Source: a virus. Taken from it: a stretch of DNA of 37,138 nt. The position numbers and the translations under genes were made by a program. Below, piece after piece: positions 4,758 to 34,462 of the stretch (position 1 is its first letter; every line of letters starts with the position of its first letter). The stretch is from positions 1 to 37,138 of the IMG/VR virus record IMGVR_UViG_3300038829_000053, one strand, 5' to 3'. The notes below the pieces were generated by a model. That model was not told where the DNA came from. It saw only the letters and a program-made list of their open reading frames with translations, and made no database searches.

Positions 4758-4767
4758 ATCTATACCA

Positions 4768-4917
4768 TTAGCGAGTAGATACCGCACCCAGTTCATAGAA
4801 GTGTTTCGCAATATCTAACGCACCCTCTTTTGTAAAAGAGACAGCATCAGCGTCTTTCCACGAATCACCGTCGCAGAAGTTGGCGAGCAATTCCTTCTTT
4901 ATATTTTCTTCGTTCAT
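4768..4917 (-). CDS. Small hypothetical protein (49 aa, below the ORF-track cutoff)
   Basis: Translated by hand as MNEENIKKELLANFCDGDSWKDADAVSFTKEGALDIAKHFYELGAVSTR. A strong Shine-Dalgarno (GAAGGAGGAAGG) lies 5 nt upstream of the ATG. Confidence 0.45.
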   Translation of the reverse strand: MNEENIKKELLANFCDGDSWKDADAVSFTKEGALDIAKHFYELGAVSTR

Positions 4918-4981
4918 ACATTCCTTCCTCCTTCGTGGAGTCGTGGGTATGCTTTCTCACATCGGCAGTAGGATATGTTGG

Positions 4982-6165: not shown

Positions 6166-6171
6166 ACATAT

Positions 6172-6180
6172 ATACTACCA
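6172..6180 (-). promoter_or_regulatory. Putative extended -10 box TGG-TAGTAT, 6 nt upstream of ATG 6165
   Basis: The minus strand reads gtgaTGTGGTAGTATatatgtATG. Confidence 0.5.
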
Positions 6181-6185
6181 CATCA

Positions 6186-6656
6186 CTAACTCGGTAAATA
6201 ACCCAATTCGGCAGCTGTGGGGACAACAATTTCCAATTCCTCACAGTAGGACAAGTCCCGCTCGATGAGCTCCACGCATTCCGACTTCATCAGGTCGCCA
6301 TTCTCTGAAATCGACTTGCGTACCATAATAGTCTGCCCTCCAATTGTCACTGGTTTTTCTCCGAATACTATCCTCATCAGAGCATCGTGCATTTCTTCTT
6401 TTGTATACCCACAATGCTCCGCCAAATATCCGACCAAAGTCCAGTGATACCGCAACTGCGAATCACTCCGCATGTATCGCATCTCCGAGAACGTTGCCGA
6501 CACTTTCTTGCCGACCGGGAACCGCGAAATGCACGCATTGAGGTGATGAATGGATTTCGGCACGAACCGTTTGCGACCATCGACCTGCTTCACCTCTCCG
6601 ATGACGGAGAAGAGTACGCGCTTCTTGGGGATGCTTTTTTTCTTATTGTATTGCAT
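6186..6656 (-). CDS. NinB/Orf-like recombination mediator (tentative; 156 aa)
   Basis: RSDSQLRYHWTLVGYLAEHCGYTKEEMHDALM... resembles the RSxxQNxxxW...G...E pattern of lambda NinB. It sits in a recombination gene neighbourhood. Confidence 0.4.
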   Translation of the reverse strand: MQYNKKKSIPKKRVLFSVIGEVKQVDGRKRFVPKSIHHLNACISRFPVGKKVSATFSEMRYMRSDSQLRYHWTLVGYLAEHCGYTKEEMHDALMRIVFGEKPVTIGGQTIMVRKSISENGDLMKSECVELIERDLSYCEELEIVVPTAAELGYLPS

Positions 6657-7017
6657 GGCGTAATGGTACTCCCGGCGCTCCGTACTTCTCGTTCAGATAC
6701 TTTTTCATTCGCTCGTAGTTGACGACCTTCGACAATGCTGCCAGCTCCTCCTCGGTCGCGCGGTTCACCGCGATCCATACGTTGATTTCTTTCACGAGTC
6801 CGGGTCCCGAGTGCGCCCACCAGCAGAGTGGTACGATTGCGAACTTCTTCTGCACCTGTCTGCCTGCGAATATGAGTGCGTGTTCCCATTCGATGAGTTT
6901 GCCTGTGCGCGGGTCCGCGCCACACGAATGGTCTGCGAGTGTAGTGCGCCGTAGACATGTCTTATACTGCGGGTCATTCGCGCACTCTTCGCGGAGTTTG
7001 GGTGGCATGTTGTTCAT
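6643..7017 (-). CDS. Hypothetical Cys/His-rich protein (124 aa)
   Basis: ATGA overlap at 7014-7017. Contains an EWEHALIF...VPLCWWAH motif (possibly HNH-like; not assigned). Confidence 0.6.
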   Translation of the reverse strand: MNNMPPKLREECANDPQYKTCLRRTTLADHSCGADPRTGKLIEWEHALIFAGRQVQKKFAIVPLCWWAHSGPGLVKEINVWIAVNRATEEELAALSKVVNYERMKKYLNEKYGAPGVPLRHAIQ

Positions 7018-7220
7018 GGGAATATGTCAGATAACTTTTCGTATCTTCTAATCACTCCGCCCTTCATGTATTTCAATGCGCTTGGCCAGACATCGATGCC
7101 GTCAATTTTCCAGTGAAAGTCGGTATACATGATAACCTTGTGTCCGCTGTCCATGACTTCGTTGACGTCGATGCGCGCCTGCTCGAGTGCATTGCGTCTC
7201 CATGAGGCAGTCCTGCTCAT
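7014..7220 (-). CDS. Hypothetical protein (68 aa; trimmed from the 160-aa ORF)
   Basis: ATG 7220 forms an ATGA overlap with the stop of 7217..7678. The longer N-terminal extension is an Arg/Gly-rich overlap of the upstream gene. Confidence 0.5.
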   Translation of the reverse strand: MSRTASWRRNALEQARIDVNEVMDSGHKVIMYTDFHWKIDGIDVWPSALKYMKGGVIRRYEKLSDIFP

Positions 7221-7678
7221 AATCGCTCCGCATCCGGGTATTGCTCCATGAATGCCTCGATATTCGCCTCCGAAATCTCGAATGCTGTCCGTATACCGTC
7301 CTTTTTCGCGATAAAACGCACCTTGGTAGCGACTTTGACCGCCTCCTGCGCCTTTGCCTGTCCTACGAGCGCGTAACCGCACTTGAGCCCGTCCACGGCT
7401 TCCTGCACCATCGTCGCCCGCGCCTTGAGACTCCCGATGTACGCCTTGAGCTCGTCGCCATCCGACGGGTACCAGTATCCGCGCCCGGACGCGCATACCG
7501 GATACCCCTTAACCTGCAACGCGTGGATGATCGACCGCATATCCGCACCCTCCTTACCAGTTGCTCGCGCCTTGAGTCCGATCTGTATCGCCACCTCTTT
7601 GCCTGTCACCGGCTTATTGGCCGGATGCATCGAGATGATCTCGAGTGTGCGACGTTGCAGGTCGGTGAGGTCGGTCAT
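7217..7678 (-). CDS. Putative winged-helix DNA-binding protein (153 aa)
   Basis: LQRRTLEIISMHPANKPVTGKEVAIQIGL...MRSIIHALQVKGYPVCAS is a wHTH-like pattern. ATGA coupled on both sides. Confidence 0.55.
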   Translation of the reverse strand: MTDLTDLQRRTLEIISMHPANKPVTGKEVAIQIGLKARATGKEGADMRSIIHALQVKGYPVCASGRGYWYPSDGDELKAYIGSLKARATMVQEAVDGLKCGYALVGQAKAQEAVKVATKVRFIAKKDGIRTAFEISEANIEAFMEQYPDAERL

Positions 7679-8226
7679 ACATTCTTAGTTACCGAATACC
7701 CTGCTATGACACAAATACCGATTGCACGTTCGAGGATGCTGTCGCCGAGGATGGACGCCTCGTCGGGGATACAAGATTCAGGGTTCATTGGTTCAGTATC
7801 CAACCTGCGGGAGAACGAGACGCCGAGATCGCCGCTGCGAGGGCCGGGCCCATCGAAGCTGACGAGCGCACCCGCGACGTCGAAGTCGCCGACATGCACG
7901 AGGACGCCGTCAGACTCGCGACTACTTGTTCTTACGTAACAGTCACCGAAAGCATATTCACCTGTATCCTGATGATGTTTAATCACCGCCCACATGAGCA
8001 CAGCTACAGGTGGCACTTCGTCTCCCTTTGAAAGAAGTTTTTGTTGCTCGTCCCATGTCTTGTTGAATGAGTTTTCGACTGGTTCAAGTGAGACATCCCA
8101 TGTGCCTGTTATCTTCTCTTTGGCAAAGTTTTCGTTGTCGTACCATGCGTTTGTTTTGAAATAGAAGTAATTAGGAAACTCGGAACGAATATCGAGGAAT
8201 GATTTGTTTGTTAGGGTGATTTTCAT
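7675..8226 (-). CDS. Hypothetical protein (183 aa)
   Basis: ATGA coupled on both sides. No motif recognised. Confidence 0.65.
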   Translation of the reverse strand: MKITLTNKSFLDIRSEFPNYFYFKTNAWYDNENFAKEKITGTWDVSLEPVENSFNKTWDEQQKLLSKGDEVPPVAVLMWAVIKHHQDTGEYAFGDCYVRTSSRESDGVLVHVGDFDVAGALVSFDGPGPRSGDLGVSFSRRLDTEPMNPESCIPDEASILGDSILERAIGICVIAGYSVTKNV

Positions 8227-9167
8227 AGTGATCCACCGAGCTCACGATTAAGAAATGGGTCGGTCTCCTTCTGCCACTCCTGTATCGCCTTACAGTGCAA
8301 GAACGCCTTGAAGTCACGATCGGCGAACGAGTCCTCACTGTCGAGGAATACCGCCTCGAAGACCTGATACGGTTTGATTGGGTAGGTGCTGGGTTCGCTA
8401 CCCTTAAACTTTGCAACTGCCGCTTTGATCTCTTTCTTACGTGTCTCGCGCTTCATGTACTCCTCCTCGGAATACTTCGAGAGTCGGAGAGCATATCGCC
8501 CATCGTAACCTTTGAACTTCGTGCGCTCCTCCTCGTCAGCCTTAGAGTAAGCAACAGTCTGCATACGCACTGAGTTATAGAGTCCGTTGGAGCTCTTGAA
8601 GTCCCCCATACAGTGAGCGCCGTCGATAACCGCCTCGAAGTCCATGATACCGATATAGTCGTAGCGCATCGAGTAGACCGCACGCTCGGTCGACAGAAAC
8701 TTCACCTTGTGCTCATCGACCCATGCAAGGAATGAGTTGACCCCTGTGATCGCCTCTGGGAAGTTAGGAATCTCTGGCATCTTCTCGAATCCCTTCTGCT
8801 TGAGTTGATGACGGATATACGCCTCGCACCATCCGTGAATCTCATGACCGATATCTGCCGCCTGCTCAAGAAAGAGCTCGCTCTGAATCACTGCCTCGAT
8901 AGCCTTCTCCTCGTCAATCTTGCCACCCTTAGCGAGCGTATCGAGCAAGAAATCAAGAGTGATGTTCTGTTGCCAGCTCATGAGTGGCTTGCTCTTATCC
9001 ATGACCCCGATGATGCCCGTCACACCTCCCTTGCGCACAAACTTCTTGCCACCGTCACGGCTGATGTAGTGCATGTGCCCCTTCTCGTGGAATCGATGAA
9101 TCACCTTGCCACCATAGAGCTCTGTGTACATCACGCCCTCTTCTCCTTTTGCTGGTTTGTAGGTCAT
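8223..9167 (-). CDS. PD-(D/E)XK family exonuclease (314 aa)
   Basis: H-x-Y...GVTGIIGV...SW N-terminal pattern and IGIMDFEAVIDG...MGDFKSS (D...D-x-K) core. Adjacent to the Rad52-like annealase. Confidence 0.65.
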   Translation of the reverse strand: MTYKPAKGEEGVMYTELYGGKVIHRFHEKGHMHYISRDGGKKFVRKGGVTGIIGVMDKSKPLMSWQQNITLDFLLDTLAKGGKIDEEKAIEAVIQSELFLEQAADIGHEIHGWCEAYIRHQLKQKGFEKMPEIPNFPEAITGVNSFLAWVDEHKVKFLSTERAVYSMRYDYIGIMDFEAVIDGAHCMGDFKSSNGLYNSVRMQTVAYSKADEEERTKFKGYDGRYALRLSKYSEEEYMKRETRKKEIKAAVAKFKGSEPSTYPIKPYQVFEAVFLDSEDSFADRDFKAFLHCKAIQEWQKETDPFLNRELGGSL

Positions 9168-9168
9168 A

Positions 9169-9336
9169 TTAATTTTGTACTGTTACGATTTCTACACTTG
9201 CTTTGATAATTTTTTTGTACAGCCAGTCAGGACACCATCTCGGTCTCGGTCTGATGACAATCGCCATCTTATCGTCAATCGTTTGAGCAAGTTTGTATCC
9301 TTGCATTCGGCAAAACTTTTCAACAGGAGATTCCAT
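9169..9336 (-). CDS. Small hypothetical protein (55 aa, below cutoff)
   Basis: Translated by hand as MESPVEKFCRMQGYKLAQTIDDKMAIVIRPRPRWCPDWLYKKIIKASVEIVTVQN. AAGGAA lies 6 nt upstream. The ORF exactly fills the gap between the 9339 stop and ATG 9167. Confidence 0.45.
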   Translation of the reverse strand: MESPVEKFCRMQGYKLAQTIDDKMAIVIRPRPRWCPDWLYKKIIKASVEIVTVQN

Positions 9337-9338
9337 AT

Positions 9339-10172
9339 CTATTTCCTTGGATAGTGATTTTTACATAGCTCCCTCCCGAACATGCGCTTACTGTACTCAG
9401 CCTCCCCCTTCGTTAAATCTGCACCGCATCCACCCTTCGATAATGTCTGACAAACATGATCCTCGATTGGCTCGAGTGGCGCACCCTGCTGAACTGTCGG
9501 CTCCTCGTACACCTTACCTTGCGCCGGGCGTGTGTCCGTTGCTGGTAGTGGAGCAACCCCCGTCTCCTGCTTGTACTCCGCCTTGCCGTAGATATCCGAT
9601 GCGATGCCGAGCAACGATGCGCACTTCTTGAGAGCATCAGTCGATGCGGCCTTGAGGTCGTTGCCGTAGTCGAGCATCGTCTTAGTACCCTTGAGGTACT
9701 TCACCTCCGCGCGGCCGAACTGCATCTTACTGATTGTCTCGCCCGGACGCTGTCCGCGCACAGTAAGACGACCTTTGACCCATATATGCCCCTCGATCAT
9801 GCCGTGCTCCACGATCTCAAAATCCCAATTCCATGCGAACACGAAATTGAGCACCTTCTCGATGTATGAACCGGTGACGTAATCGAACACCTGACCGCCC
9901 TTGCCCGGACGTCGGTAGACATGCTCACGCGGTGTTTTCTGCACCATGCGAATAATCTGCGCATCGTTGAGCCATGTTTTCGGTATCGTGAGCTTCTTGC
10001 CCTCGCGCATCGGTTCCGCGAGATCCGTGACGGTAGGAATGAGTGGCACCTGCTCCACGCGCACCACGATCTCCGTTTTACTCACGCGCGGCTTAGATTC
10101 CTTCGGTATCTTACGCGCTGACTTCTTTACCACTACCTTTCGGCGTGACTTCTTTGCGATTTTTTTTGCCAT
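9339..10172 (-). CDS. Rad52/Rad22-family single-strand annealing protein (277 aa from ATG 10172)
   Basis: RRPGKGGQVFDYVTGSYIEKVLNFVFAWNWDFEIV...KAASTDALKKCASLLGIASDIYG matches the Rad52 core. Shine-Dalgarno AAGGAAG precedes ATG 10172. Lys-rich N-terminus and a Cys/His C-terminal tail. Confidence 0.75.
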   Translation of the reverse strand: MAKKIAKKSRRKVVVKKSARKIPKESKPRVSKTEIVVRVEQVPLIPTVTDLAEPMREGKKLTIPKTWLNDAQIIRMVQKTPREHVYRRPGKGGQVFDYVTGSYIEKVLNFVFAWNWDFEIVEHGMIEGHIWVKGRLTVRGQRPGETISKMQFGRAEVKYLKGTKTMLDYGNDLKAASTDALKKCASLLGIASDIYGKAEYKQETGVAPLPATDTRPAQGKVYEEPTVQQGAPLEPIEDHVCQTLSKGGCGADLTKGEAEYSKRMFGRELCKNHYPRK

Positions 10173-10437
10173 GGTCTTCCTTCTTAATTGGTAATCCGAA
10201 AATCTCACGCGCACCACCTGCTTTGTCCTCGTTGGCATACCTGATAACTGTATGCCCGAGTACACTCTGCACCTTTGCGAGAACATCCATACTGCCTGTT
10301 GGCTCTCCTACGCACACGCGGTGTTTTCCATCGACAATCAAGTCGAATCCATCCACCTCACGCGAGCGTTCGGATACGGCGTACCCTGAACACCAGAGTC
10401 TCCGTTTGACGATATTGATTATGTTTATTTTCGTCAT
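10111..10437 (-). CDS. Hypothetical protein (108 aa from ATG 10437)
   Basis: ATG 10437 lies 6 nt downstream of TATAAT. GYAV...DGFDLIVDGKHRVCVGE faintly resembles a PD-(D/E)XK/Hjc-type core (not assigned). The 3' end overlaps the annealase start by about 60 nt. Confidence 0.5.
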   Translation of the reverse strand: MTKINIINIVKRRLWCSGYAVSERSREVDGFDLIVDGKHRVCVGEPTGSMDVLAKVQSVLGHTVIRYANEDKAGGAREIFGLPIKKEDHGKKNRKEVTPKGSGKEVSA

Positions 10438-10443
10438 AAATCC

Positions 10444-10449
10444 ATTATA
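10444..10449 (-). promoter_or_regulatory. Putative -10 box G-TATAAT, 6 nt upstream of ATG 10437
   Basis: The minus strand reads atgagGTATAATggatttATGacg. Confidence 0.5.
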
Positions 10450-10505
10450 CCTCATTAATAATCTGCAACTGTGAAGTTATCCACTCCCTCGAGATTCGCA
10501 GACCG

Positions 10506-10773
10506 GGGCGCCGTTACTTTCGGGCTGTGCGACAATCGCTTGGTTTCGCTCGTTTTCGGTGGCTCTCGTGAATTGTGCTACCCCCATCTGTATGTCCGCA
10601 CTATCGACCCGATGAAAAGTCTCCAGTCTTTCTCCGAAGAGAATAGCGAGTGGGATACAAAACGCGCTCCTGCCGATCGTGACTGACCAAGTCGTGGCCG
10701 TTTTGCCGCTTATGTCGCCTCATCAACTATCCACGCTTCTGACAGACGAGTCCCTAAGTCCATCACGGCGCCC
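10506..10773 (-). ncRNA. Candidate structured RNA or regulatory element in a 338-nt ORF-free gap
   Basis: It is the largest gap without a credible ORF in a tightly packed genome. A 9-nt inverted repeat (acggcgccc at 10765-10773; gggcgccgt at 10506-10514) could close a roughly 268-nt domain. A UUCG-capped hairpin lies at 10630-10643 and a GCGA-capped hairpin near 10529-10549. Confidence 0.3.
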
Positions 10774-10793
10774 AGTTCTACGAACCTCAAAGA

Positions 10794-11009
10794 TCAACTC
10801 TCTTCGCTCCTCTTGATGACCACGATCGGATGCTTCCTGAATACCATGATCGGATTGAGTCGCCCGAGCCACTCCCAGATGAGTTCCTTGTACGCCGCAT
10901 ACTGAATGCGATCCATTTCAAGTGGTTCACCGACCTGAGTATCTTTCCCCTGCATCACCTGCTCGAGCTCATCGAGCGAACCGAACCTGACTCCTTGGTC
11001 GATTCTCAT
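10794..11009 (-). CDS. Hypothetical protein (71 aa)
   Basis: ATGA overlap with the upstream 57-aa ORF. Confidence 0.55.
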   Translation of the reverse strand: MRIDQGVRFGSLDELEQVMQGKDTQVGEPLEMDRIQYAAYKELIWEWLGRLNPIMVFRKHPIVVIKRSEES

Positions 11010-11179
11010 ACATCCTCTGTGAATGTCACGATGATGCCTGATTCACGATCGATGGCGCCAGCCGGCAGACTCTTCGTATGAATCATCCGCTTAACTTTAT
11101 TTACAGCGTCCGGTGATGTCTCCGCTTCGACCACTAACTGACCCGTGCGCTTCTCGCGCAGATGTACGATGTACTTCAT
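11006..11179 (-). CDS. Small hypothetical protein (57 aa, below cutoff)
   Basis: Translated by hand as MKYIVHLREKRTGQLVVEAETSPDAVNKVKRMIHTKSLPAGAIDRESGIIVTFTEDV. ATGA coupled at both ends. Confidence 0.45.
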   Translation of the reverse strand: MKYIVHLREKRTGQLVVEAETSPDAVNKVKRMIHTKSLPAGAIDRESGIIVTFTEDV

Positions 11180-11313
11180 ATCATTCTGCTATCATATACA
11201 CCCCCGGCTCGTGCTAATTCTGACAACTTGTTTGGAATAATCTTTGCATTCCACGACCGGTGCCGTCGCGGCCATGGAGTAGAAACTTCAAGTAGGTTGA
11301 GTGGTTTCTGCAT
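11176..11313 (-). CDS. Small hypothetical protein (45 aa, below cutoff)
   Basis: Translated by hand as MQKPLNLLEVSTPWPRRHRSWNAKIIPNKLSELARAGGVYDSRMI. It starts 2 nt after the 3D-domain gene stop and ends in an ATGA overlap. Confidence 0.35.
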   Translation of the reverse strand: MQKPLNLLEVSTPWPRRHRSWNAKIIPNKLSELARAGGVYDSRMI

Positions 11314-11315
11314 AC

Positions 11316-11714
11316 TCAATTAATTATTGCCACCTCGACTCGCTTCTTACCGAACTCAAACGCCTGCGCCTTTGAATGCATCCATATATCGAACCTTTCA
11401 CCGAACCGCGAGTGCATGCGATCGTCACATGTGTACTCCTGCCCGGCGATCAACACACGAGTCCCGAATGCATATCGCATTGGACACGCTACGCTCCCGG
11501 GTCCCGGGCGAGTACCGGCCGCGTTCTCGAACGGCGTACTGTCTGTCTCGTCAACGCTCGATGTGTACGCAGTGACTGTCGCCACCACCCTCTCGCCCTG
11601 TGGGACATCCGTGATGATTATCTGCGCCTCTGCGCTCGGAGTGAGTGCAACCATGAGGACTGTGACCATTGCGATAAATACGACCATGAGTGAGAATGCT
11701 AGGATGTCGTTCAT
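11316..11714 (-). CDS. Secreted or membrane-anchored 3D-domain protein (MltA/YabE/Rpf-associated cell-wall-cleaving fold; 132 aa)
   Basis: N-terminal hydrophobic signal ending in AEA. VTAYTSSVDETDSTPFENAAGTRPGPGSVACP...FGTRVLIAG..YTCDDRM...FDIW matches the 3D-domain pattern. Confidence 0.8.
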   Translation of the reverse strand: MNDILAFSLMVVFIAMVTVLMVALTPSAEAQIIITDVPQGERVVATVTAYTSSVDETDSTPFENAAGTRPGPGSVACPMRYAFGTRVLIAGQEYTCDDRMHSRFGERFDIWMHSKAQAFEFGKKRVEVAIIN

Positions 11715-11729
11715 GTTAGAAGTCGAAAG

Positions 11730-12431
11730 TTATTTTGTCCATACTTCAAGTGATGTAATTCGGGTAAGGAACCACTTGTCTAGGGAGTCAACGAGTTTCT
11801 TTTCAGCCGACCACGCCGACCACGCCGCCGACCTCGCCGCCGACCTCGCCGCCGACTCCGCCGACCACGCCGCCGACCTCGCCGCCGACCTCGCCGCCGA
11901 CCTCGCCGCCGACTCCGCCGACCACGCCGACCACGCCGCCGACCTCGCCGCCGACTCCGCCGACCTCGCCGCCGACCTCGCCGCCGACTCCGCCGACCTC
12001 GCCGCCGACCACGCCGCCGACTCATTTGCTTTTGTCGGCTCTGCTAACCACTTCTTAGCTGCTTCTATTGCATCACGCGGACGGGAGTCATTTGGATAGA
12101 CCTGTTCATAATTCTTAATGCACGACTCCGCTGCGAAAATAGAAAACGCAACTGAGTCCGCTTTCTTCCAGTGATAGGCTTTCACGATTCTCATATCAGA
12201 CCAACACTCTTTGTCGTCTTGAATATCGGAATCACCTTTGACTTCTACTTCGGCAAGTATTTCACCTTGAACATATCCTAGAGCCTGCAGAGGAGTCTTT
12301 GATGCGTGAAAACCCAAGTTGCAAATGTCTACTTTATCTTCGTGATACCACTCGCCCACTTTCCACTCGTGATTTCCTGAATCACTTTTGAGTCCAGTGC
12401 GGAGGAACTTATATAGTTTTTTAGTTTTCAT
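11730..12431 (-). CDS. Two-domain protein with an Ala-rich tandem repeat (233 aa from ATG 12431): N-terminal C-x-x-GFHA domain plus Imm5-like P-x-D-x-RPR-x-AIEAA helical repeat domain
   Basis: The ORF-track start is TTG 12533, whereas ATG 12431 is ATGA-coupled to an upstream micro-ORF. Motifs: ICNLGFHASKTPLQALGY; YPNDSRPRDAIEAAKKWL, followed by about 20 SAAR/SAAW/SAE units. Confidence 0.75.
   Translation of the reverse strand: MKTKKLYKFLRTGLKSDSGNHEWKVGEWYHEDKVDICNLGFHASKTPLQALGYVQGEILAEVEVKGDSDIQDDKECWSDMRIVKAYHWKKADSVAFSIFAAESCIKNYEQVYPNDSRPRDAIEAAKKWLAEPTKANESAAWSAARSAESAARSAARSAESAARSAAWSAWSAESAARSAARSAARSAAWSAESAARSAARSAAWSAWSAEKKLVDSLDKWFLTRITSLEVWTK
11806..12024. repeat. Imperfect 12-nt/9-nt tandem repeat (GCCGCCGAC-CTC/TCC/CAC and GCCGAC-CAC/CTC), about 20 units
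   Basis: Read directly from the sequence. It is in frame within 11730..12431. Several frames on both strands stay open across it, which creates spurious ORFs 11780..12025, 11803..12012 and 11416..12099. Confidence 0.95.
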
Positions 12432-12508
12432 ATCTCCGAGAGGATTACCGTCACGATTCCGATAAACACGACCATGAAGAAGAAACTGAAGATTGTGTCG
12501 CGCGTCAT
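12428..12508 (-). CDS. Micro-ORF D, hydrophobic peptide (26 aa)
   Basis: MTRDTIFSFFFMVVFIGIVTVILSEI. ATGA overlaps at both ends. Confidence 0.35.
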   Translation of the reverse strand: MTRDTIFSFFFMVVFIGIVTVILSEI

Positions 12509-12573
12509 AGGAGTATCCATCCGATGATGACAATTAACCAAAAAGCAAAGTATGTCTTTTCAACTGTACTCAT
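12505..12573 (-). CDS. Micro-ORF C, hydrophobic peptide (22 aa)
   Basis: MSTVEKTYFAFWLIVIIGWILL. ATGA overlaps at both ends. Confidence 0.35.
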   Translation of the reverse strand: MSTVEKTYFAFWLIVIIGWILL

Positions 12574-12707
12574 ACGCCTGCCGCAGCGAGCCGCTGCATC
12601 TTATGCGCCCACTCGACCATCGCGATGAAATTGAACACGAAAAATGTCGATGTCCTTCCTGCGTGGGAAACCGCCCACGCGTTCGGTGCCATTCGTTGGA
12701 TTGTCAT
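12570..12707 (-). CDS. Micro-ORF B (45 aa)
   Basis: MTIQRMAPNAWAVSHAGRTSTFFVFNFIAMVEWAHKMQRLAAAGV. ATGA overlaps at both ends. Confidence 0.35.
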   Translation of the reverse strand: MTIQRMAPNAWAVSHAGRTSTFFVFNFIAMVEWAHKMQRLAAAGV

Positions 12708-12793
12708 AAGCCGTTGTCCTCTAACCGAGCGTGCGAGTAATCATCCTCTTCTTTGACCTCGTCTTCTTCAAGAACTTCCTCGTCTGTGTCCAT
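12704..12793 (-). CDS. Micro-ORF A, highly acidic peptide (29 aa)
   Basis: MDTDEEVLEEDEVKEEDDYSHARLEDNGL. Strong Shine-Dalgarno (AAAGGAG) upstream. It is the first ORF after the control region. Confidence 0.4.
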   Translation of the reverse strand: MDTDEEVLEEDEVKEEDDYSHARLEDNGL

Positions 12794-12890
12794 ACTCCTT
12801 TGAGTGATTATTAACCGGCTCTCGCCGTACAACCACTATAACATAAAAGATTACTGATATATAACTACAATGGCTACCTGTGGACAAAGT

Positions 12891-12898
12891 ATATTACA
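12891..12898 (-). promoter_or_regulatory. Putative -10 box TG-TAATAT for the 12793-downstream operon
   Basis: The minus strand reads gtggTGTAATATacTTTGTCCACAGGTAGCC. The predicted transcription start falls at the TTGTCCACAGG motif. Confidence 0.4.
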
Positions 12899-12931
12899 CC
12901 ACATTTCTATAAAATACCCTCATTGCACTGG

Positions 12932-12968
12932 TGCAAGGAGGCTTTTCTGCAAGGAGGTGTTTCTGCAA
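12932..12968. repeat. 16-bp direct repeats (2.3 copies), iteron/operator-like
   Basis: tgcaaggaggcttttc / tgcaaggaggtgtttc / tgcaa. They are overlapped by the palindrome TTGCAC-tg-GTGCAA (12923-12936). A third AAGGAGG lies at 12980-12986. Confidence 0.7.
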
Positions 12969-13016
12969 CCATAAGTAATAAGGAGGGACACAAAATAAAA
13001 CGTATCTTTATAGCAA

Positions 13017-13038
13017 AATGCCCTCTTTCGAGGACATT
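13017..13038 (-). terminator. Hairpin terminator candidate (second of a tandem pair)
   Basis: The minus-strand RNA reads AAUGUCCUC-GAAA-GAGGGCAUU followed by UUGCUAU. The stem contains a G.U pair only on the minus-strand transcript (C.A on the plus strand), which supports minus-strand function. Confidence 0.5.
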
Positions 13039-13086
13039 CTGCTTATCGAAGGATGCTCACCATAGCTGATGGGCAAAATAGTGGTT

Positions 13087-13113
13087 GTGCCTACTTACGG
13101 GGTGGTACGGCAC
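13087..13113 (-). terminator. Hairpin terminator candidate after the last virion-module gene
   Basis: The minus-strand RNA reads GUGCCGUAC-caccccguaa-GUAGGCAC (8 bp with one bulge), followed by aaccacUAUUUUG. Confidence 0.45.
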
Positions 13114-13135
13114 TAACCAATCCCCAGCCACCTCC

Positions 13136-13390
13136 CTACCCAATGTTCCCGAGTGGAGTGACCACTTCTCCCTGACTGTTACTGAAGAAGTTCTTGGTCA
13201 TATAGGTCACGAAACCGATCACCGCGCCATTGATCGCGAGGTTCAATATCTCGCCCCAGTTCGCATTGAAGAGGTCGAACCCAGGCGTCTGAAACGCCGC
13301 CGCGATCGGCAGAGCGAATCCCGCGAGAACCGCCATAACAAGACCCTTCTGCACGTCGCTCAAATTCAGTCTGAATATTCCGCTGCTCAT
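13136..13390 (-). CDS. Small membrane protein, holin-like (84 aa, two hydrophobic segments)
   Basis: GLVMAVLAGFALPIAAAF and ILNLAINGAVIGFVTYM segments. Confidence 0.55.
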   Translation of the reverse strand: MSSGIFRLNLSDVQKGLVMAVLAGFALPIAAAFQTPGFDLFNANWGEILNLAINGAVIGFVTYMTKNFFSNSQGEVVTPLGNIG

Positions 13391-13487
13391 GATGTGAATG
13401 TTATCAATAACAATCTGACCGCGCTACTACCGAGTGGGGACAGTCTGAATTATTCCGTTGCATTTTGAACAATGTTTCATGTCCCAC

Positions 13488-13493
13488 ATTGTA
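13488..13493 (-). promoter_or_regulatory. Putative -10 box G-TACAAT, 7 nt upstream of an ATG (13480)
   Basis: The minus strand reads tgtgGTACAATgtgggacATGaaa. The ATG opens a 17-codon ORF (MKHCSKCNGIIQTVPTR, 13427..13480) ahead of the 84-aa gene. Confidence 0.4.
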
Positions 13494-13506
13494 CCACATA
13501 AACATT

Positions 13507-15735
13507 TTACTTAACTTTAGTTTTCCCCTTCTTTTTCGTAACCACACTCCCGGGTGGTGCGCCGGGCTTCTCCGAGTATCGGTAGATGCCCTCCTGAGAC
13601 CCCTGATTCCCCTGTTGTTTGCCCGCTGGTGCCACTTTCGCCACCGGAACCACCTCCGGCGCCTTTGTGGCCGTTTCGGCCGCTGTGGGAGCGATTTTGC
13701 CCTTCCCTCCGAGCTTCCCGCGAGTGAGTAGCTTCTTGCCCCACGGAGTAGTGAAAAGCTTCGTGATGCCGTATTCGATACCGATCTTCGGGAGAAGTAC
13801 CCCGAGTCCGGGGCCGACCGCGAGTACGAGATTGATTCCGACTTGGAGTTTCTCTGCCGTAGGGGATCCAGCTACCATCTTTGTACCCTTACCCATAGCG
13901 GCGGCCATCTGCTTGAGGTCCATAAGCTTCTGAAGCTCCTCCGGTGAAAACACTCTCTGCAATACCTTCGTATCATACGCTTCAATCGCCTGCGCGAGCC
14001 GGCCGGGCTGAACCTTCCCATCGAGTGTGGCGCGTTCGATGATGTCGTCCGCAATTGAACTTCGGAGCAGATCCTTGAGCTGCTGCAGTCCTCGCTCGCC
14101 TACGAGCTCGCGTATAGTGTCATCTCCGTACTTTGTGAGCATTGCCGCAAGCTTCCCGGGATTCATCTTGCCCGTAAGAGGAACGATCGCTGACTGGATG
14201 ACGGTATTCATGAATGCATCGCCTACCGACTGGAACGCCTCCGCGCCGACGAGCTCCTTGAGTTCGCGAATCGCTGTGGCATCACCTGCTTTTATGAGGG
14301 ACCCGAATATACGCTCCGGACTCCGGGCGTTCTTAATCGTCCGCCCCATAATAGAATTAATCTTATTGATACCGGCCTTGTAAAATTCATTGGCCGCCTT
14401 GAGCGCGTTTGAAGCTTCAACGCCGGATGCTGAAACAGTGGTGTCGAGATCCTTTGAAAGCGCCGCATATATCCGTTTGAGACTTGCTGTGTCGCCTGTA
14501 GCGATCGGGTCCGTGCGGTTCCCAAGCTTCGACCCGATATCGGATCGCGTCTGTTTTACATTGGCGAAAGTGCGCTTATCCGCGGTCGAAAGGTTATTAC
14601 GAAGCGACTGATAGTACCGAGCGGTGTTCCGAGCCGTTGGGTCACTCGATGCCATCTTCTGCGCGATTATCTCGTCGAGAGCTTTCTTAGTCTCATCAAG
14701 AATGGCCTGTTGGGTGCCGATGCGTGAGGATGCCTCGTCGTAAAGCTTCGCCTTTGTTTCGTTAAAAGTCTTCGTGGCGGTCGTGAGAGCTCCCTTGAGC
14801 TCGGTACCGACATTCTCGAGCGTCACACCCGGCTTTATGAGCGTTTGCGGATCCGCGTACTTTCGGAGCGACTCCGCGACCTTAGACATTCCAGCTTGTG
14901 CCTCCTCGACTATCTTTGTAACAGCTGCACCGCCGAACCACGAGCTCTGCGCTATTGCCTCTGCTCCCTGAACTGCACGATTCGTTGTGACGGCTGATAC
15001 TGGCGCTTCGATGCCGTATTTCTTAAATGTCTCAGCGACATCCGGCGCAGTACTTCTGACTGATGCTCCGAGAATATCGTCCGCTTCCTTTTCTGCTATT
15101 GAAACTGCCCTCGTAGGAATCACCGACTTAATCTTCGTACCTACTTTCTCAGCTGCACCGATGACCGGCTGTGTCGCTATCTTCGCACCCTTGGGACCAA
15201 TCGCGAGAGTGATTGTATCCACGAAATCCTGCACATCTCCGGCAAGTTCAGGATTCGTCTTTGCAATATCGCCAACCTTCGCACCAAAGTCATTCGTAAC
15301 ATCGAGGAATTTCCCGACCCTATCCGACATAGCAATGCGCTGTGCAATTGGGAGATCCGATAGATGCTCTATTGCGCTCTCGATCGTTGCTGAAAGCGGA
15401 GCGAATAGAACACGCGCACCAGCACCGACCGCCTGCATTGGAGCTTTGAGAGCAACCAGGGGTTTCTCTATCGCCGGCGCGTTGCCGAACTGCTCGGCAG
15501 TTTTTTGTATCCTCGCCGCGCCCGTTTCTCCCTCCTTAGTCGCGATTTCACTGATGCGTTGCACGATGGGTCCCTTAGGAAGATTCGCTCCGGGGATGTT
15601 CGATTGCGGCGTGATCGACGGGGCGACTTCTCCGAACGATGCGAAATCAAAACTACCCGACTTCGGTACCACTGGTGCTACTCCGCTTTTCGGCGGCGCC
15701 GTTGTCCCTCCGAATGTTGAGAAGTCGAATGCCAT
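13507..15735 (-). CDS. Large alpha-helical virion protein, internal/ejection- or tape-measure-like (742 aa)
   Basis: Position in the tail module. Ala/Lys/Glu-rich helical composition, C-terminal hydrophobic segment and basic tail. No motif recognised. Confidence 0.55.
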   Translation of the reverse strand: MAFDFSTFGGTTAPPKSGVAPVVPKSGSFDFASFGEVAPSITPQSNIPGANLPKGPIVQRISEIATKEGETGAARIQKTAEQFGNAPAIEKPLVALKAPMQAVGAGARVLFAPLSATIESAIEHLSDLPIAQRIAMSDRVGKFLDVTNDFGAKVGDIAKTNPELAGDVQDFVDTITLAIGPKGAKIATQPVIGAAEKVGTKIKSVIPTRAVSIAEKEADDILGASVRSTAPDVAETFKKYGIEAPVSAVTTNRAVQGAEAIAQSSWFGGAAVTKIVEEAQAGMSKVAESLRKYADPQTLIKPGVTLENVGTELKGALTTATKTFNETKAKLYDEASSRIGTQQAILDETKKALDEIIAQKMASSDPTARNTARYYQSLRNNLSTADKRTFANVKQTRSDIGSKLGNRTDPIATGDTASLKRIYAALSKDLDTTVSASGVEASNALKAANEFYKAGINKINSIMGRTIKNARSPERIFGSLIKAGDATAIRELKELVGAEAFQSVGDAFMNTVIQSAIVPLTGKMNPGKLAAMLTKYGDDTIRELVGERGLQQLKDLLRSSIADDIIERATLDGKVQPGRLAQAIEAYDTKVLQRVFSPEELQKLMDLKQMAAAMGKGTKMVAGSPTAEKLQVGINLVLAVGPGLGVLLPKIGIEYGITKLFTTPWGKKLLTRGKLGGKGKIAPTAAETATKAPEVVPVAKVAPAGKQQGNQGSQEGIYRYSEKPGAPPGSVVTKKKGKTKVK

Positions 15736-15737
15736 AC

Positions 15738-17198
15738 TTAGTCTATAAACTCAATCAGGTACCCTTGCAAATATGCCGAATTCGCCTCCTCCGATGTAAC
15801 TGACCCCTCTTTTGTTTTTCCATCAGGACTGGTGATTCTGACCTTCTGTGGCTGACCGGCCGCGAGCCCAAATGCACCGCGCACCTTCCTGACTTCCTTC
15901 TTGAAGTCTTCGTTGCCGAGACTCGACCGCCCCGCGTCGTTTATACCGAGCGATGACCCAGCATCGGCAATCATTTTGCCTTCAAAGTCGGACACCGCGC
16001 CCTGCCCCTTCAGTTTCTGGCGATTCTCCAAAGAGAGGATTGCCTTCAACTGCTTCGCTTTATTCTGTGCGAGCTGTGTTTTAGTTCCGGGAGTGAATGC
16101 GCTCAATCCGGGAACACCAGCAATCGCATTCAGTGTGCCGTCGCCAATGTTCAAAAGCTCATTCACGAGACCATAATTCTGTGTAATCTCACCTTCTGCA
16201 AGTTTCTTCGCATCACTCTTTTCTGTCGCTTTGTCGATGCTCTCCTGTGTCACCTCCGGCACCCCGACTTTCTTGAACGTTCCATCTCGCTTATTGAGCA
16301 TGTAAATACCGTCCTTGCGCGAGACCACATCGATATCCTTCGGGTCCACTCCTCCCGATATCGGCAAGTCCACTGTCTCGGTCGTGATAGTCCCGTCCCG
16401 ATTCTTTTTGAAAAACACTGCCTTATTGCCGAAAATCTCCGGCTTGTCCTTGTTGATGTATGCGTTGCTGTTGGCGATTTTGAGTCCCTGATACAGCTGA
16501 TCGAACGTCGCCGAATCATATCCTGTCTGATCAAGAAGTTTCTGTCTCTGCTCGCTCGTGAGCTCGGCACCGGATGTTGCCAGTGCAGTGAAATCAGTAC
16601 GTGCTTGTGTAGCCTGATCCTTAAGAAATGTTGAATAGTCGGTAGCGTTCTTTGATGCAGACGTCTTGGCGTTCTGAATGAGTGAGTCCGCGCGAGTGTT
16701 TACACCTGCCAGAATATTGCTTATTTTTTCTGCACTCGCCGCACTGATAGCACGTTCCTCTTGGACATTGGCTTGATAGGTTTTCTCTTCCTGCGTATCT
16801 CCAATAGGGCTTCCGATAACGCCAGTCGATGCGCTAAGTGCTCGAGTGCGTCCTGATCTCTCTGTACCTCGAACGCGAGCACTCGCAAGTTCTGTCTGTG
16901 TGAGTTCATTGACGGCATCTATTTGCGCCTGTACATCCTTGCGTGCATTCTCGCGGATTGTTGCTTCATTGACTGGTGTAACTGGTGTCTTATCGTTCGC
17001 ACCGCCGGGATCGAATTGTTCACTACCTCCTGAATAAGGAACGCCGCCGGGCGTACGAGTCGTGACTGTCGCAGGTGTTGGTGTAGGTGCTTGCGATGAT
17101 TCGAACCTTGAGACACCATTCGGGTCGGTTACATTGTAACCAGTGATTCTGTTTTGTTCGTCGTAAACGGGAGAGTATGCCATATTAGTTTGTGCCAT
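15738..17198 (-). CDS. Virion structural protein (486 aa)
   Basis: Position in the tail module. Its stop lies 2 nt upstream of the ATG of the next gene (TAAgtATG at 15735-15740). Confidence 0.55.
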   Translation of the reverse strand: MAQTNMAYSPVYDEQNRITGYNVTDPNGVSRFESSQAPTPTPATVTTRTPGGVPYSGGSEQFDPGGANDKTPVTPVNEATIRENARKDVQAQIDAVNELTQTELASARVRGTERSGRTRALSASTGVIGSPIGDTQEEKTYQANVQEERAISAASAEKISNILAGVNTRADSLIQNAKTSASKNATDYSTFLKDQATQARTDFTALATSGAELTSEQRQKLLDQTGYDSATFDQLYQGLKIANSNAYINKDKPEIFGNKAVFFKKNRDGTITTETVDLPISGGVDPKDIDVVSRKDGIYMLNKRDGTFKKVGVPEVTQESIDKATEKSDAKKLAEGEITQNYGLVNELLNIGDGTLNAIAGVPGLSAFTPGTKTQLAQNKAKQLKAILSLENRQKLKGQGAVSDFEGKMIADAGSSLGINDAGRSSLGNEDFKKEVRKVRGAFGLAAGQPQKVRITSPDGKTKEGSVTSEEANSAYLQGYLIEFID

Positions 17199-18678: not shown

Positions 18679-18684
18679 GGCGTT

Positions 18685-18690
18685 ATTATA
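18685..18690 (-). promoter_or_regulatory. Putative -10 box TG-TATAAT, 6 nt upstream of ATG 18678
   Basis: The minus strand reads accTTGTATAATaacgccATGagc. Confidence 0.5.
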
Positions 18691-18726
18691 CAAGGTTTAT
18701 AAAATAAATGAAGTGTTGTCCACATA

Positions 18727-20622: not shown

Positions 20623-20623
20623 T

Positions 20624-34461: not shown

Positions 34462-34462
34462 G

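What the first reader, a model, noticed from the sequence alone, without database searches (positions are those of the whole stretch)
11730..12431. Phage protein fusing a C-x-x-GFHA domain to an Imm5-like domain that is expanded by a 219-bp Ala-rich tandem repeat
The C-terminal half begins with YPNDSRPRDAIEAAKKWL. The P-x-D-x-RPR-x-AIEAA-x-x-W motif followed by Ala-rich helices is what I associate with the putative immunity family Imm5 of polymorphic-toxin systems. Here the helical part is built from about 20 SAAR/SAAW/SAE units. These are encoded by near-perfect 12-nt and 9-nt DNA repeats (11806-12024) that are far more GC-rich than the rest of the gene. The N-terminal half (KVGEWYHEDKVDICNLGFHASKTPLQALGY...) resembles a widespread phage and bacterial domain of unknown function. 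The repeat could vary in copy number by slippage. An immunity-like domain in the first operon after the control region suggests neutralisation of a host toxin or effector.
Basis: partly seen in the sequence, partly recalled or inferred. Interest (0 to 1): 0.7.

Follow-up and report, generated by a model that had tools for sequence, protein, structure and literature searches.

The report
Phage protein with hypervariable alanine-rich hairpin
This phage gene is an ordinary member of a very large, uncharacterised family (DUF7666 fused to an Imm5-like domain) whose tail is a slippage-prone alanine-rich repeat predicted to form a helical hairpin of variable length; its "immunity" role is only a name so far.

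Summary
Window 11730-12431 (minus strand) encodes a 233-aa protein with three parts:
- an N-terminal DUF7666 domain (52 bits, cut-off 27);
- an Imm5-like helical base carrying the D-x-RPR-x-AIEAA motif (Pfam 27.6 bits, cut-off 25; 98.9% profile-profile probability against canonical Imm5_like proteins);
- a 219-nt array of exactly 20 near-identical 12-nt and 9-nt units (SAAR, SAAW, SAE, SAW), 81% GC against 43% for the rest of the gene.

The array is not an unusual expansion. Relatives with complete genes carry one too, with a median length of 73 aa, the same as here. Each lineage uses essentially one alanine codon, which points to recent DNA-level amplification.

A groundwater contig identical over 19 kb differs only by a 165-nt in-frame deletion inside the array. 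Several other pairs of near-identical genes differ in the same way. However, 14 of 79 related viral contigs end inside the repeat, so any single assembled copy number is uncertain.

AlphaFold2 (pLDDT 92) predicts one long antiparallel helical hairpin, not a solenoid, and its length follows the repeat. The large residues recur every 3.65 residues, one helical turn.

No toxin gene, conserved neighbour, defence-library match or solved structural relative was found. The immunity function is therefore untested.

The parts
11730..12431 (-). Whole gene, 233 aa plus stop; DUF7666 + Imm5-like base + repeat hairpin + conserved tail
   Evidence: ORF list and sequence; Pfam; more than 2,100 homologues
12162..12419 (-). 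DUF7666 domain (aa 5-90), beta-rich
   Evidence: PF24703, 52.1 bits against cut-off 27. All 117 aligned relatives match it. AF2 predicts strands 4-87. BFVD fold matches to DUF7666 proteins.
12300..12323 (-). C-x-x-G-F-H-A-S signature (aa 37-44): C37 conserved in at least 90%; G40, H42, S44 invariant
   Evidence: Alignment A1 of 117 sequences
12021..12164 (-). Imm5-like helical base (aa 90-137): helices 90-111 and 117-130
   Evidence: PF21805, 27.6 bits against cut-off 25 over aa 94-172. hhalign against canonical Imm5_like proteins: 98.9%, E 1.9e-17, query aa 80-154. AF2 model.
12075..12089 (-). D115-S-R117-P118-R119 motif, matching the 'R, D' signature given for Imm5
   Evidence: D115 invariant; R117, P118 and R119 at least 90% conserved. 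Signature as listed in PMC3482391.
11802..12020 (-). Tandem array of 20 units (thirteen of 12 nt, seven of 9 nt) encoding aa 138-210. It forms most of both arms of the predicted helical hairpin (H134-179, turn 180-184, H185-225).
   Evidence: units, GC 0.81; hairpin; 3.68-residue periodicity, above every one of 500 shuffles; 165-nt in-frame difference from L001
11733..11801 (-). Conserved non-repetitive C-terminal tail KKLVDSLDKWFLTRITSLEVWTK (aa 211-233). It shows that the reading frame is kept through the array.
   Evidence: A similar tail (consensus KI..WF..R.K.L) follows the array in relatives. AF2 puts it in the second hairpin arm.
12833..13135 (-). Non-coding, AT-richer gap upstream of the gene cluster; candidate regulatory region with a tandem 16-nt repeat at 12932-12963
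   Evidence: No promoter-like site was reported in the gap, and the counts for the scanned region 10400-13600 equalled chance.
12428..12793 (-). Four small upstream ORFs with overlapping stop and start codons: 29-aa acidic (12704-12793), 45 aa (12570-12707), 22-aa hydrophobic (12505-12573), 26-aa hydrophobic (12428-12508, ATGA overlap with the target start)
   Evidence: Sequence and translations. The gene calls on the identical contig L001 include the 29-aa and 45-aa ORFs.
11316..11714 (-). Downstream gene, 15 nt after the target's stop: 132 aa, hydrophobic N-terminus, weak PHROG similarity to a family annotated as cell-wall peptidase
   Evidence: phrog_6631 E 6e-10; phrog_2307 E 2e-6

Best explanation
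The gene encodes a cytoplasmic, non-structural accessory protein of a 37-kb tailed phage from groundwater. It belongs to the very large DUF7666 + Imm5-like family.

Anatomy (shown or predicted):
- A beta-rich DUF7666 head with an invariant G-x-H-x-S signature preceded by a near-invariant cysteine.
- A two-helix Imm5-like base carrying the D-x-RPR motif.
- A long antiparallel Ala/Ser-rich helical hairpin, followed by a conserved tail.

The hairpin is encoded by 12-nt and 9-nt units, that is, 4 and 3 residues. They are mixed so that the average unit is 3.65 residues, one helical turn. This places Ser/Ala on the packing faces and the bulky W, R and E residues in a stripe along one face.

Because the units are near-identical DNA, the array probably gains, loses and reshuffles units, by slipped-strand mispairing or unequal recombination (inferred). 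Changes are always in frame, so hairpin length and the order of displayed residues change much faster than the rest of the gene.

Function (inferred, not shown): the Imm5-like part and hairpin act as a fast-evolving protein-binding surface that sequesters a host or competitor protein, such as a toxin or a defence effector. The DUF7666 head would supply a conserved second activity or docking site.
For: Domains:
- establish both domain assignments.

Structure:
- AF2 gives pLDDT 92 and pTM 0.81, with helices 134-179 and 185-225.
- The 178-aa allele P0001 has the same head and base but a hairpin of 134-151 and 156-170.
- The large residues recur every 3.68 residues here, with more spectral power than any of 500 shuffles. 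The median is 3.65 over 138 distinct relatives.

DNA-level turnover:
- Identical codons are used for each unit type.
- Each lineage's array uses essentially one Ala codon: GCG, GCT, GCC or GCA. A median 75% of 12-mers in an array are duplicated.
- L001 is identical to the window over 19,086 nt except for a 165-nt in-frame indel in the array. All five apparent mismatches fall inside the repeat.
- At least five other pairs have 98-100% identical N-terminal parts but different arrays.

Non-structural, mobile accessory gene:
- None of 12 window neighbours was found at 159 related loci, apart from the exonuclease at 3. Relatives sit beside YopX-like, NinG-like, replication and terminase genes.
- Some relatives carry an N-terminal 'A1S_2505 family phage non-structural protein' domain.

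Binding or immunity theme:
- Homology to Imm5_like.
- One protein (P0121) has 11 tandem Imm5_like modules, resembling the polyimmunity proteins described in PMC3482391.
- Iyer et al. 2011 proposed Imm5 as a scaffold able to bind structurally different toxins.
Against: - No partner or target is known.
- No toxin domain was found among the 20 window neighbours and larger ORFs scanned.
- PADLOC and NCBIfam gave no match.
- Canonical stand-alone Imm5_like genes sampled in five bacterial and archaeal loci sit beside housekeeping-type genes, not toxins.
- Imm5 immunity is itself only a computational prediction.
- The window protein matches only positions 12-89 of the 129-position Imm5_like profile.
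- The hairpin is an AF2 prediction on low-complexity sequence.
- Repeat-length differences come from short-read assemblies, which visibly struggle with this region.
Confidence: 0.45

Rival explanations
1. The array is a tolerated, selectively near-neutral low-complexity hairpin. Slippage changes its length without consequence. The function lies entirely in the DUF7666 head and the Imm5-like base.
For: Array length ranges from 18 to 139 aa among typical relatives with intact heads and tails. The displayed residues differ widely between lineages: W/R/E, Y/N, D/H, G/W. The short allele P0001 is predicted to fold equally well.
Against: The frame and the helical register are kept across 138 relatives; the median period is 3.65 residues with an interquartile range of 3.48-3.75. 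An array was present in nearly all complete genes examined. The conserved tail always follows it. These points indicate selection on at least helix geometry.
Confidence: 0.3
2. The exact copy number in this window, and/or the 165-nt difference from L001, is an assembly artefact: collapse or mis-ordering of a repeat longer than the reads. It would not be biological variation.
For: 14 of 79 IMG/VR contigs end inside the array and 4 more end within 300 nt after the gene. One MAG contig has Ns there. Both the window (127-nt terminal overlap) and L001 (contig name k127_) appear to be k=127 short-read assemblies. The two genomes are otherwise identical.
Against: The longest exact internal repeat in the array is 50 nt, well below k=127, so the long allele is unambiguous at that k. 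The short allele is only 54 nt of repeat, so single reads would span it. Arrays of similar size occur in frame in relatives from many independent assemblies. Several other near-identical pairs also differ.
Confidence: 0.2
3. The protein is primarily an enzyme. The conserved Cys37 and His42 of DUF7666 are catalytic, and the hairpin is a spacer or targeting arm.
For: G40, H42 and S44 are invariant and C37, E57 and D73 are conserved in at least 90% of relatives. DUF7666 is fused to different repeat modules (ankyrin, DUF4116) in giant viruses, as a constant effector head would be. Some relatives have N-terminal fusions to an A1S_2505 domain and, marginally, a Macro domain.
Against: There is no fold or sequence similarity to any solved enzyme. 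A five-residue Cys-to-His spacing is not, to my knowledge, a known catalytic arrangement.
Confidence: 0.15
4. It is a membrane-active or lysis-accessory protein. The W/R-rich amphipathic helices bind membranes, matching the tiny hydrophobic ORFs upstream and the secreted peptidase-like protein downstream.
For: Local context. The array has 9 Arg and 6 Trp.
Against: The context is not conserved in any of 159 related loci. Many relatives display acidic or polar residues (D, E, N, H) instead. There is no signal peptide or transmembrane segment.
Confidence: 0.05
5. It is a virion structural protein, a coiled-coil fibre or needle.
For: Weak PHROG matches to tail-fibre families (E 0.1-0.16) over the Ala-rich part.
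Against: Those matches are insignificant and confined to low-complexity sequence. The gene lies outside the head and tail module. In relatives it lies among replication and Nin-region-like genes.
Confidence: 0.03

Closest known systems
Imm5_like (Pfam PF21805) and Imm5 (PF14423), predicted immunity proteins of polymorphic toxin systems (Iyer 2011, PMC3239186; Zhang 2012, PMC3482391)
   Same: A homologous helical segment with the ...FE..YP.D.RPR.AIEA...W motif (hhalign 98.9%), followed by Ala-rich helices. It is mostly alpha-helical and has the conserved R and D.
   Different: Canonical members are stand-alone proteins of 140-180 aa. Their later helices are non-repetitive (AAHAAARDA, AARAAGHAAAT.HV..HA, W-Q). 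Here that part is replaced by a tandem-repeat hairpin plus a different tail, and a DUF7666 domain is fused in front. No toxin neighbour is present, and the window protein itself does not reach PF14423.
DUF7666 (PF24703) proteins of phages, bacteria and giant viruses
   Same: The same beta-rich domain with the C..G.H signature. BFVD fold matches have probability 1.0 and rmsd about 2 A over about 90 residues.
   Different: In giant viruses the domain is joined to ankyrin or DUF4116 repeats, and in some phages to much longer proteins. Here it is joined to Imm5-like. No member has a known function.
Polyimmunity proteins (tandem immunity domains; Zhang 2012)
   Same: Relative P0121 carries 11 tandem Imm5_like modules. 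This shows the module is used in the serial arrangement described for immunity domains.
   Different: The window protein has one module, and its internal repetition is at the level of 3-4 residues, not whole domains.
In-frame simple-sequence repeat variation of bacterial surface and virulence proteins, and contingency loci (general knowledge, not tested here)
   Same: Near-identical short DNA units, copy number differing between otherwise identical genomes, and homogenisation within a gene.
   Different: Unit lengths are multiples of three, so this is length variation rather than on/off phase variation. The protein is phage-encoded and apparently cytoplasmic.
Alacoil-type Ala-rich antiparallel coiled coils (general knowledge)
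   Same: Small residues at 3-4 spacing on the packing face of two antiparallel helices; periodicity 3.65; AF2 hairpin.
   Different: Known only as a structural motif. No homology is implied, and the geometry here is predicted, not solved.

Membership tests
DUF7666 (PF24703) | Score at or above Pfam's gathering threshold over most of the profile | tested here: met
   52.1 bits against 27, profile positions 2-91 of 95. All 117 relatives match.
DUF7666 (PF24703) | Same fold as other DUF7666 proteins | tested here: met
   Foldseek against BFVD: DUF7666 proteins at E 6e-6 to 4e-4, probability 1.0. Both sides are predicted structures.
Imm5_like (PF21805) | Score at or above the gathering threshold | tested here: met
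   27.6 bits against 25, a marginal pass, over profile positions 12-89 of 129 only. 89 of 117 relatives match at E <= 0.001.
Imm5_like (PF21805) | Homology to canonical full-length members | tested here: met
   hhalign of A1 against seven canonical members (those scanned score 126-151 bits): probability 98.9%, E 1.9e-17, 73 columns.
Imm5_like (PF21805) | Complete domain including the C-terminal helices with their invariant H, H, Y and W-Q positions | tested here: not met
   The alignment stops at template column 88 of 172. The canonical invariant H96, H100, Y107, W125 and Q126 have no counterpart; the tandem array and a different tail take their place.
Imm5 (PF14423) immunity protein sensu Zhang et al. 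2012 | Mostly alpha-helical with conserved R and D | tested here: met
   AF2 predicts helices from residue 90 onward. D115 is invariant and R117 and R119 are at least 90% conserved. The definition was read.
Imm5 (PF14423) immunity protein sensu Zhang et al. 2012 | Match to the PF14423 profile | tested here: not met
   The window protein has no PF14423 match at E <= 1. Only 11 of 117 relatives match at E <= 0.001.
Imm5 (PF14423) immunity protein sensu Zhang et al. 2012 | Adjacent toxin gene (DYW-type deaminase, CdiA-CT or another polymorphic toxin) | tested here: not met
   No toxin domain in the 20 window neighbours and larger ORFs scanned. No conserved neighbour across 159 loci. The recurrent neighbours are ordinary phage genes.
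Imm5 (PF14423) immunity protein sensu Zhang et al. 2012 | Protects against a cognate toxin | not testable with these tools
   Needs co-expression and rescue assays. The papers read present Imm5 as a prediction from gene neighbourhoods and report no experiment on it.
Hypervariable in-frame tandem-repeat (contingency-like) locus | Near-identical short units whose number differs between otherwise identical genomes | tested here: met
   The unit types have identical codons. There is a 165-nt indel against L001, which is otherwise 100% identical over 19 kb. At least five further pairs behave the same way. Caveat: all are short-read assemblies.
Hypervariable in-frame tandem-repeat (contingency-like) locus | Length heterogeneity within one population, at read level | not testable with these tools
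   No reads are available. Contigs ending in the array (14 of 79) fit either heterogeneity or simple assembly failure.
Ala-rich antiparallel coiled-coil hairpin | Helical periodicity of core and surface residues, and a hairpin whose length follows the repeat | tested here: met
   Period 3.68 (window) and median 3.65 (family). AF2 models of the long and short alleles. Prediction only.

The most novel reading that the evidence does not exclude
The array is a phage contingency locus. By constantly adding, deleting and reshuffling 3- and 4-residue units tuned to one helical turn, phage populations would generate libraries of helical hairpins. These would differ in length and in the order of interaction-prone residues (W, R, Y, E, D, H) displayed on an inert Ala/Ser scaffold. 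That amounts to a minimalist, rapidly evolvable binder used against host toxins or defence effectors. The hosts may be ultra-small Patescibacteria or DPANN archaea, in whose MAG bins the closest relatives are found.
Probability: 0.2. Interest if true: 0.75.

Novelty: new member of a known kind. Interest (0 to 1): 0.4.

Why it matters
This particular gene is one more member of a catalogued but functionally blank family: 1,363 clusters at 50% identity match its non-repeat part.

The family-wide behaviour found here may be worth more than the gene:
- Each lineage re-amplifies its own codon-homogeneous Ala-rich array.
- The mix of 3- and 4-residue units keeps an alpha-helical register.
- Array length differs between otherwise identical genes.
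- The array breaks short-read assemblies.

I found no description of this in the searchable literature.

If the hairpin is a binding surface, the family would be a simple natural system for fast diversification of a protein binder in phages. It would also be a candidate counter-defence or immunity module in phages of uncultured hosts.

In practice, the array can explain contig ends and unreliable gene models in viromes.

Tried and rejected
- DNA similarity of 9000-16000 to 50,697 GenBank phages: none.
- tblastn of the protein against the same set: one weak hit, Methanosarcina virus MetMV, 36% over 77 aa, annotated hypothetical.
- PDB by sequence profile: only chance matches to MBP fusion constructs.
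- Foldseek against PDB with both models: nothing below E 0.9.
- NCBIfam and PADLOC: no match for the protein.
- PHROGs: only families of unknown function.
- Rfam and tRNA scans of the window: nothing.
- Promoter and terminator scan around the gene: counts equal to shuffled controls.
- Exact 29-nt flank of the array searched in JGI metagenome contigs and IMG/VR to find more alleles of this phage: no match.
- The exact 233-aa product is not on record in the contig index.
- Window neighbours searched at 159 related loci: none conserved.
- A1S_2505 N-terminal domain of relatives against PDB sequences: nothing. My impression that it is macro-like therefore rests on motif resemblance only.
- Literature searches for DUF7666, Imm5_like and the repeat peptides: no relevant paper. 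PMC10469887 has no whole-word 'Imm5'.
- The alternative-frame ORFs inside the array (81-aa RRRG..., 69-aa GGEV..., plus-strand 227-aa ADHAADLAADL...) were rejected as by-products of the repeat. Only the S-A-A-x frame joins the conserved head and tail.
- The L103 long-read chromosome copy appeared frame-disrupted and was not pursued.
- Searches were input errors.
Full report
**1. What is in the sequence.**

The minus strand of window 11730-12431 carries a 233-aa ORF. The ATG at 12431 has GGAG five bases upstream and overlaps, as ATGA, the stop of a 26-aa hydrophobic ORF. Relatives start at the same MK..LYKF, so the longer TTG-initiated reading from 12533 is not the gene.

KVGEWYHEDKVDICNLGFHASKTPLQALGY lies in the N-terminal half, YPNDSRPRDAIEAAKKWL is at residues 111-128, and an Ala/Ser-rich array follows.

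The array consists of exactly 20 units:
- 9 SAAR (TCGGCGGCGAGG)
- 4 SAAW (TCGGCGGCGTGG)
- 5 SAE (four TCGGCGGAG and a terminal TCGGCTGAA)
- 2 SAW (TCGGCGTGG)

That is 219 nt at 11802-12020 when cut at unit boundaries. Tandem Repeats Finder reports 11806-12023 with periods 12, 21 and 33. GC is 0.81 in the array, 0.43 before it and 0.39 after it.

**2. Domain identity.**

Pfam assigns residues 5-90 to DUF7666 (52.1 bits, cut-off 27). It assigns residues 94-172 to Imm5_like (27.6 bits, cut-off 25, profile positions 12-89 of 129). Of 117 aligned relatives, all match DUF7666, 89 match Imm5_like, 17 match DUF6931 and 11 match Imm5 proper.

Because the Imm5_like score is marginal, I tested it independently. 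I aligned seven canonical stand-alone Imm5_like proteins from bacterial and archaeal genomes (those scanned score 126-151 bits). I then compared that profile with the profile of the phage family. hhalign gives 98.9% probability and E 1.9e-17 over 73 columns. It pairs SIFAAESCIKNYEQVYPNDSRPRDAIEAAKKWL with WA.DCAEHVL..FE..YP.D.RPR.AIEA...W.

The homology is therefore real, but it covers only the first half of the canonical domain. The later canonical helices, with their invariant His, Tyr and Trp-Gln positions, have no counterpart. In the phage family the tandem array and a different conserved tail occupy that place.

In the alignment G40, H42, S44, K74, D115, A121 and I122 are invariant. C37, R117, P118 and R119 are conserved in at least 90% of sequences. 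D115 and the arginines fit the 'R, D' signature that Zhang et al. 2012 list for Imm5.

**3. Predicted structure.**

AlphaFold2 with the 117-sequence alignment gives pLDDT 92 and pTM 0.81. The model has:
- a beta-rich head (strands between residues 4 and 87);
- two helices (90-111 and 117-130);
- one long antiparallel helical hairpin (134-179, turn 180-184, 185-225), whose second arm ends in the conserved tail.

The 178-aa allele P0001 gives the same head and base with a short hairpin, 134-151 and 156-170, at pLDDT 91. The array therefore sets the hairpin length.

A sequence-only test agrees. The non-small residues in the array recur with a period of 3.68 residues, with power 3.5 against a maximum of 2.2 in 500 shuffles. 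Across 138 distinct relatives the median period is 3.65, with an interquartile range of 3.48-3.75. Thirteen 4-residue units and seven 3-residue units average 3.65 residues, one alpha-helical turn. The mixture of 12-nt and 9-nt units is therefore what keeps Ser/Ala and the bulky W/R/E residues on fixed helix faces.

Neither model has a significant match in the PDB by fold or by sequence. Against predicted viral structures, the head matches DUF7666 proteins of phages. It also matches giant-virus proteins annotated as ankyrin or DUF4116 repeat proteins.

**4. The array is a family trait and turns over quickly.**

The word-indexed search found more than 2,100 relatives. A full HMMER scan with the non-repetitive residues 1-137 found 1,363 clusters at 50% identity.

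The relatives examined with complete genes have an Ala-rich array at the same position, followed by a similar tail. The residues displayed differ by lineage: SAAW/SAAR/SAE, AAYAAAN, AARAADAA, AAWAAAG and AAHAAAD. The median array length in 68 complete genes is 73 aa, the same as here, so this gene is not unusually expanded.

Within each gene the array uses essentially one alanine codon, for example 55 GCT, 70 GCC, 42 GCG or 52 GCA. A median 75% of its 12-mers are duplicated. Third-position GC ranges from 0.08 to 0.96 between lineages. This is the signature of recent DNA-level amplification repeated independently in each lineage. It also means the extreme GC seen here is partly a lineage accident.

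**5. Copy-number variation.**

Contig L001 (ENA groundwater metagenome ERZ909581, 19,086 nt) matches window 2028-21278. The only structural difference is a 165-nt in-frame deletion of 15 units. All five apparent mismatches lie inside the array and come from the overlapping BLAST blocks. Outside the array the two sequences are identical.

Other pairs have 98-100% identical N-terminal parts but arrays of different length or order: L051/P0164, P0063/P0066, P0055/P0119, P0091/P0102 and P0070/P0109. In P0109 the tail is also out of frame.

Against this, 14 of 79 related IMG/VR contigs end inside the array and four more end within 300 nt after the gene. A random end would fall in about 220 nt of a 40-kb genome roughly 0.5% of the time (my estimate). 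Short-read assemblers clearly fail at this region.

For this window the long allele is unambiguous at k=127, because its longest exact internal repeat is 50 nt. The 54-nt short allele would be spanned by single reads. I therefore think both alleles are probably real, but only reads can settle it.

**6. Genomic setting.**

The window's first and last 127 nt are identical, so it is a circular assembly of 37,011 bp. All plausible genes are on the minus strand. The order along that strand is:
- terminase (32809-34500);
- major head protein (26428-27669);
- tail spike-like protein (22469-24424);
- a protein similar to ones ejected on infection (15738-17198);
- a 742-aa protein;
- an 84-aa hydrophobic protein;
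- a 300-nt non-coding gap (12833-13135);
- a tight cluster of four tiny ORFs, the target, and a 132-aa protein with a hydrophobic N-terminus and weak similarity to a PHROG family annotated as cell-wall peptidase;
- a Rad52-like protein, an exonuclease, a replication initiator, an HNH protein and an endolysin-like protein.

However, the promoter scan was at chance level.

None of 12 window neighbours was found at 159 related loci, apart from the exonuclease at 3. In those loci the gene lies among YopX-like, NinG-like, replication, methylase, transglycosylase and terminase genes. It behaves as a mobile accessory gene. The one recurrent partner is a ~57-aa CxxC protein immediately downstream in 21 of 102 loci, and it is absent here.

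The closest genome-collection matches are ~40-kb contigs binned with Patescibacteria, and more distant ones with DPANN archaea. This hints at the hosts, but mis-binning is possible.

**7. Function.**

Nothing tested supports or excludes immunity. Imm5 was defined computationally as a neighbour of DYW-type deaminase and CdiA-CT toxins.

Here there is no toxin domain in the window ORFs scanned and no PADLOC or NCBIfam match. Canonical Imm5_like genes sampled in cellular genomes sit beside a GH31 glycosidase, a PNP oxidase and GNAT acetyltransferases. In one locus (L147) two Imm5_like paralogues lie next to a NACHT-like ATPase.

Three observations favour a binding or conflict role:
- homology to Imm5_like;
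- a 2,410-aa protein with 11 tandem Imm5_like modules, resembling polyimmunity proteins;
- fusions of the whole DUF7666 + Imm5-like unit to an A1S_2505 'phage non-structural protein' domain and, marginally, to a Macro domain.

My best reading is a cytoplasmic accessory protein whose fast-changing hairpin is a binding surface for a host or competitor protein. The conserved DUF7666 head would be a second functional site. I hold the anatomy with high confidence and the function with low confidence.

**8. Verdict.**

- The domain calls and the slippage idea are supported.
- 'Expanded', 'solenoid' and 'neutralises a host toxin' are not supported.
- The gene is a typical new member of a catalogued, uncharacterised family.
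- The family-wide, register-preserving, codon-homogeneous repeat turnover is the interesting part. I could not find it described in the literature.

Noticed in passing
window 1-127 and 37012-37138: The first and last 127 nt are identical. The window is therefore a circular (or terminally redundant) assembly of 37,011 bp, probably made at k=127.
   Followed up: partly
window 12833-13135 (tandem repeat at 12932-12963): A 300-nt AT-richer non-coding gap lies upstream of the gene cluster. It contains a tandem 16-nt direct repeat, TGCAAGGAGGCTTTTC / TGCAAGGAGGTGTTTC (GAAAAGCCTCCTTGCA on the coding strand). It may be a regulatory element. No promoter-like site was reported in the gap, and the counts for the scanned region equalled chance.
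   Followed up: partly
window 12428-12573, minus strand: Two tiny hydrophobic ORFs, MSTVEKTYFAFWLIVIIGWILL (22 aa) and MTRDTIFSFFFMVVFIGIVTVILSEI (26 aa), are chained by ATGA overlaps to each other and to the target gene. The second resembles the N-terminus of the downstream 132-aa protein (MNDILAFSLMVVFIAMVTVLMVAL).
   Followed up: no
L015 6825-6998, L017 6717-6893, L028 6681-6848 and 18 further loci: A conserved ~57-aa protein (..EEVRKHIQECEGKHTQQAIYSTFHDALTQVCFGCKKIRSTI) starts at or within a few bases of the stop codon of the DUF7666 + Imm5-like gene in most of the 21 (of 102) related loci that carry it. It is absent from this window and has no Pfam, NCBIfam or PADLOC match.
   Followed up: partly
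L022 1413-2188 and 3519-4420: One viral contig carries two copies of the two-gene cassette (DUF7666 + Imm5-like gene followed by the small CxxC gene). This suggests the pair is duplicated as a unit.
   Followed up: no
relatives P0030, P0062, P0117, P0124 (N-terminal ~120 aa); P0137 (residues 41-117): Some family members carry an extra N-terminal domain. P0030 and P0117 match NCBIfam A1S_2505_Nterm 'phage non-structural protein' (about 130 bits). P0062 and P0124 show the same N-terminal motif (IFVFGSN...) but were not scanned against NCBIfam. P0137 instead has a marginal Macro-domain match (21.8 bits, cut-off 22).
   Followed up: partly
protein P0121 (2,410 aa, metagenomic): A giant protein made of 11-12 tandem Imm5_like modules (263 bits, 11 stretches), without DUF7666.
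   Followed up: partly
L003, L007, L010, L031, L056, L060, L066, L080 and others (3' ends); L090: 14 of 79 IMG/VR contigs terminate inside the Ala-rich array, many of them near-genome-length contigs. One MAG contig has a run of N there. The repeat is a recurrent assembly breakpoint in viromes.
   Followed up: yes
window 11416-12099 (+), 11780-12025 (-), 11803-12012 (-): Long alternative-frame ORFs run through the array (ADHAADLAADL..., RRRGRRS..., GGEVGGV...). They are by-products of the repeat, not genes, and could mislead gene callers.
   Followed up: yes
window 8223-10286, minus strand: A recombination module directly follows the cluster: a Rad52/22-family protein (9339-10286; the contig's own gene call is a shorter 277-aa version) and an exonuclease (8223-9167).
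   Followed up: no
L081-L102 (genome contigs): The closest cellular-genome matches are ~40-kb or short contigs binned into Patescibacteria (Paceibacterota, Nomurabacteria, Portnoybacteria, Microgenomates). More distant ones are in DPANN archaeal MAGs. These may be phages of ultra-small hosts, or mis-binned phage contigs.
   Followed up: no
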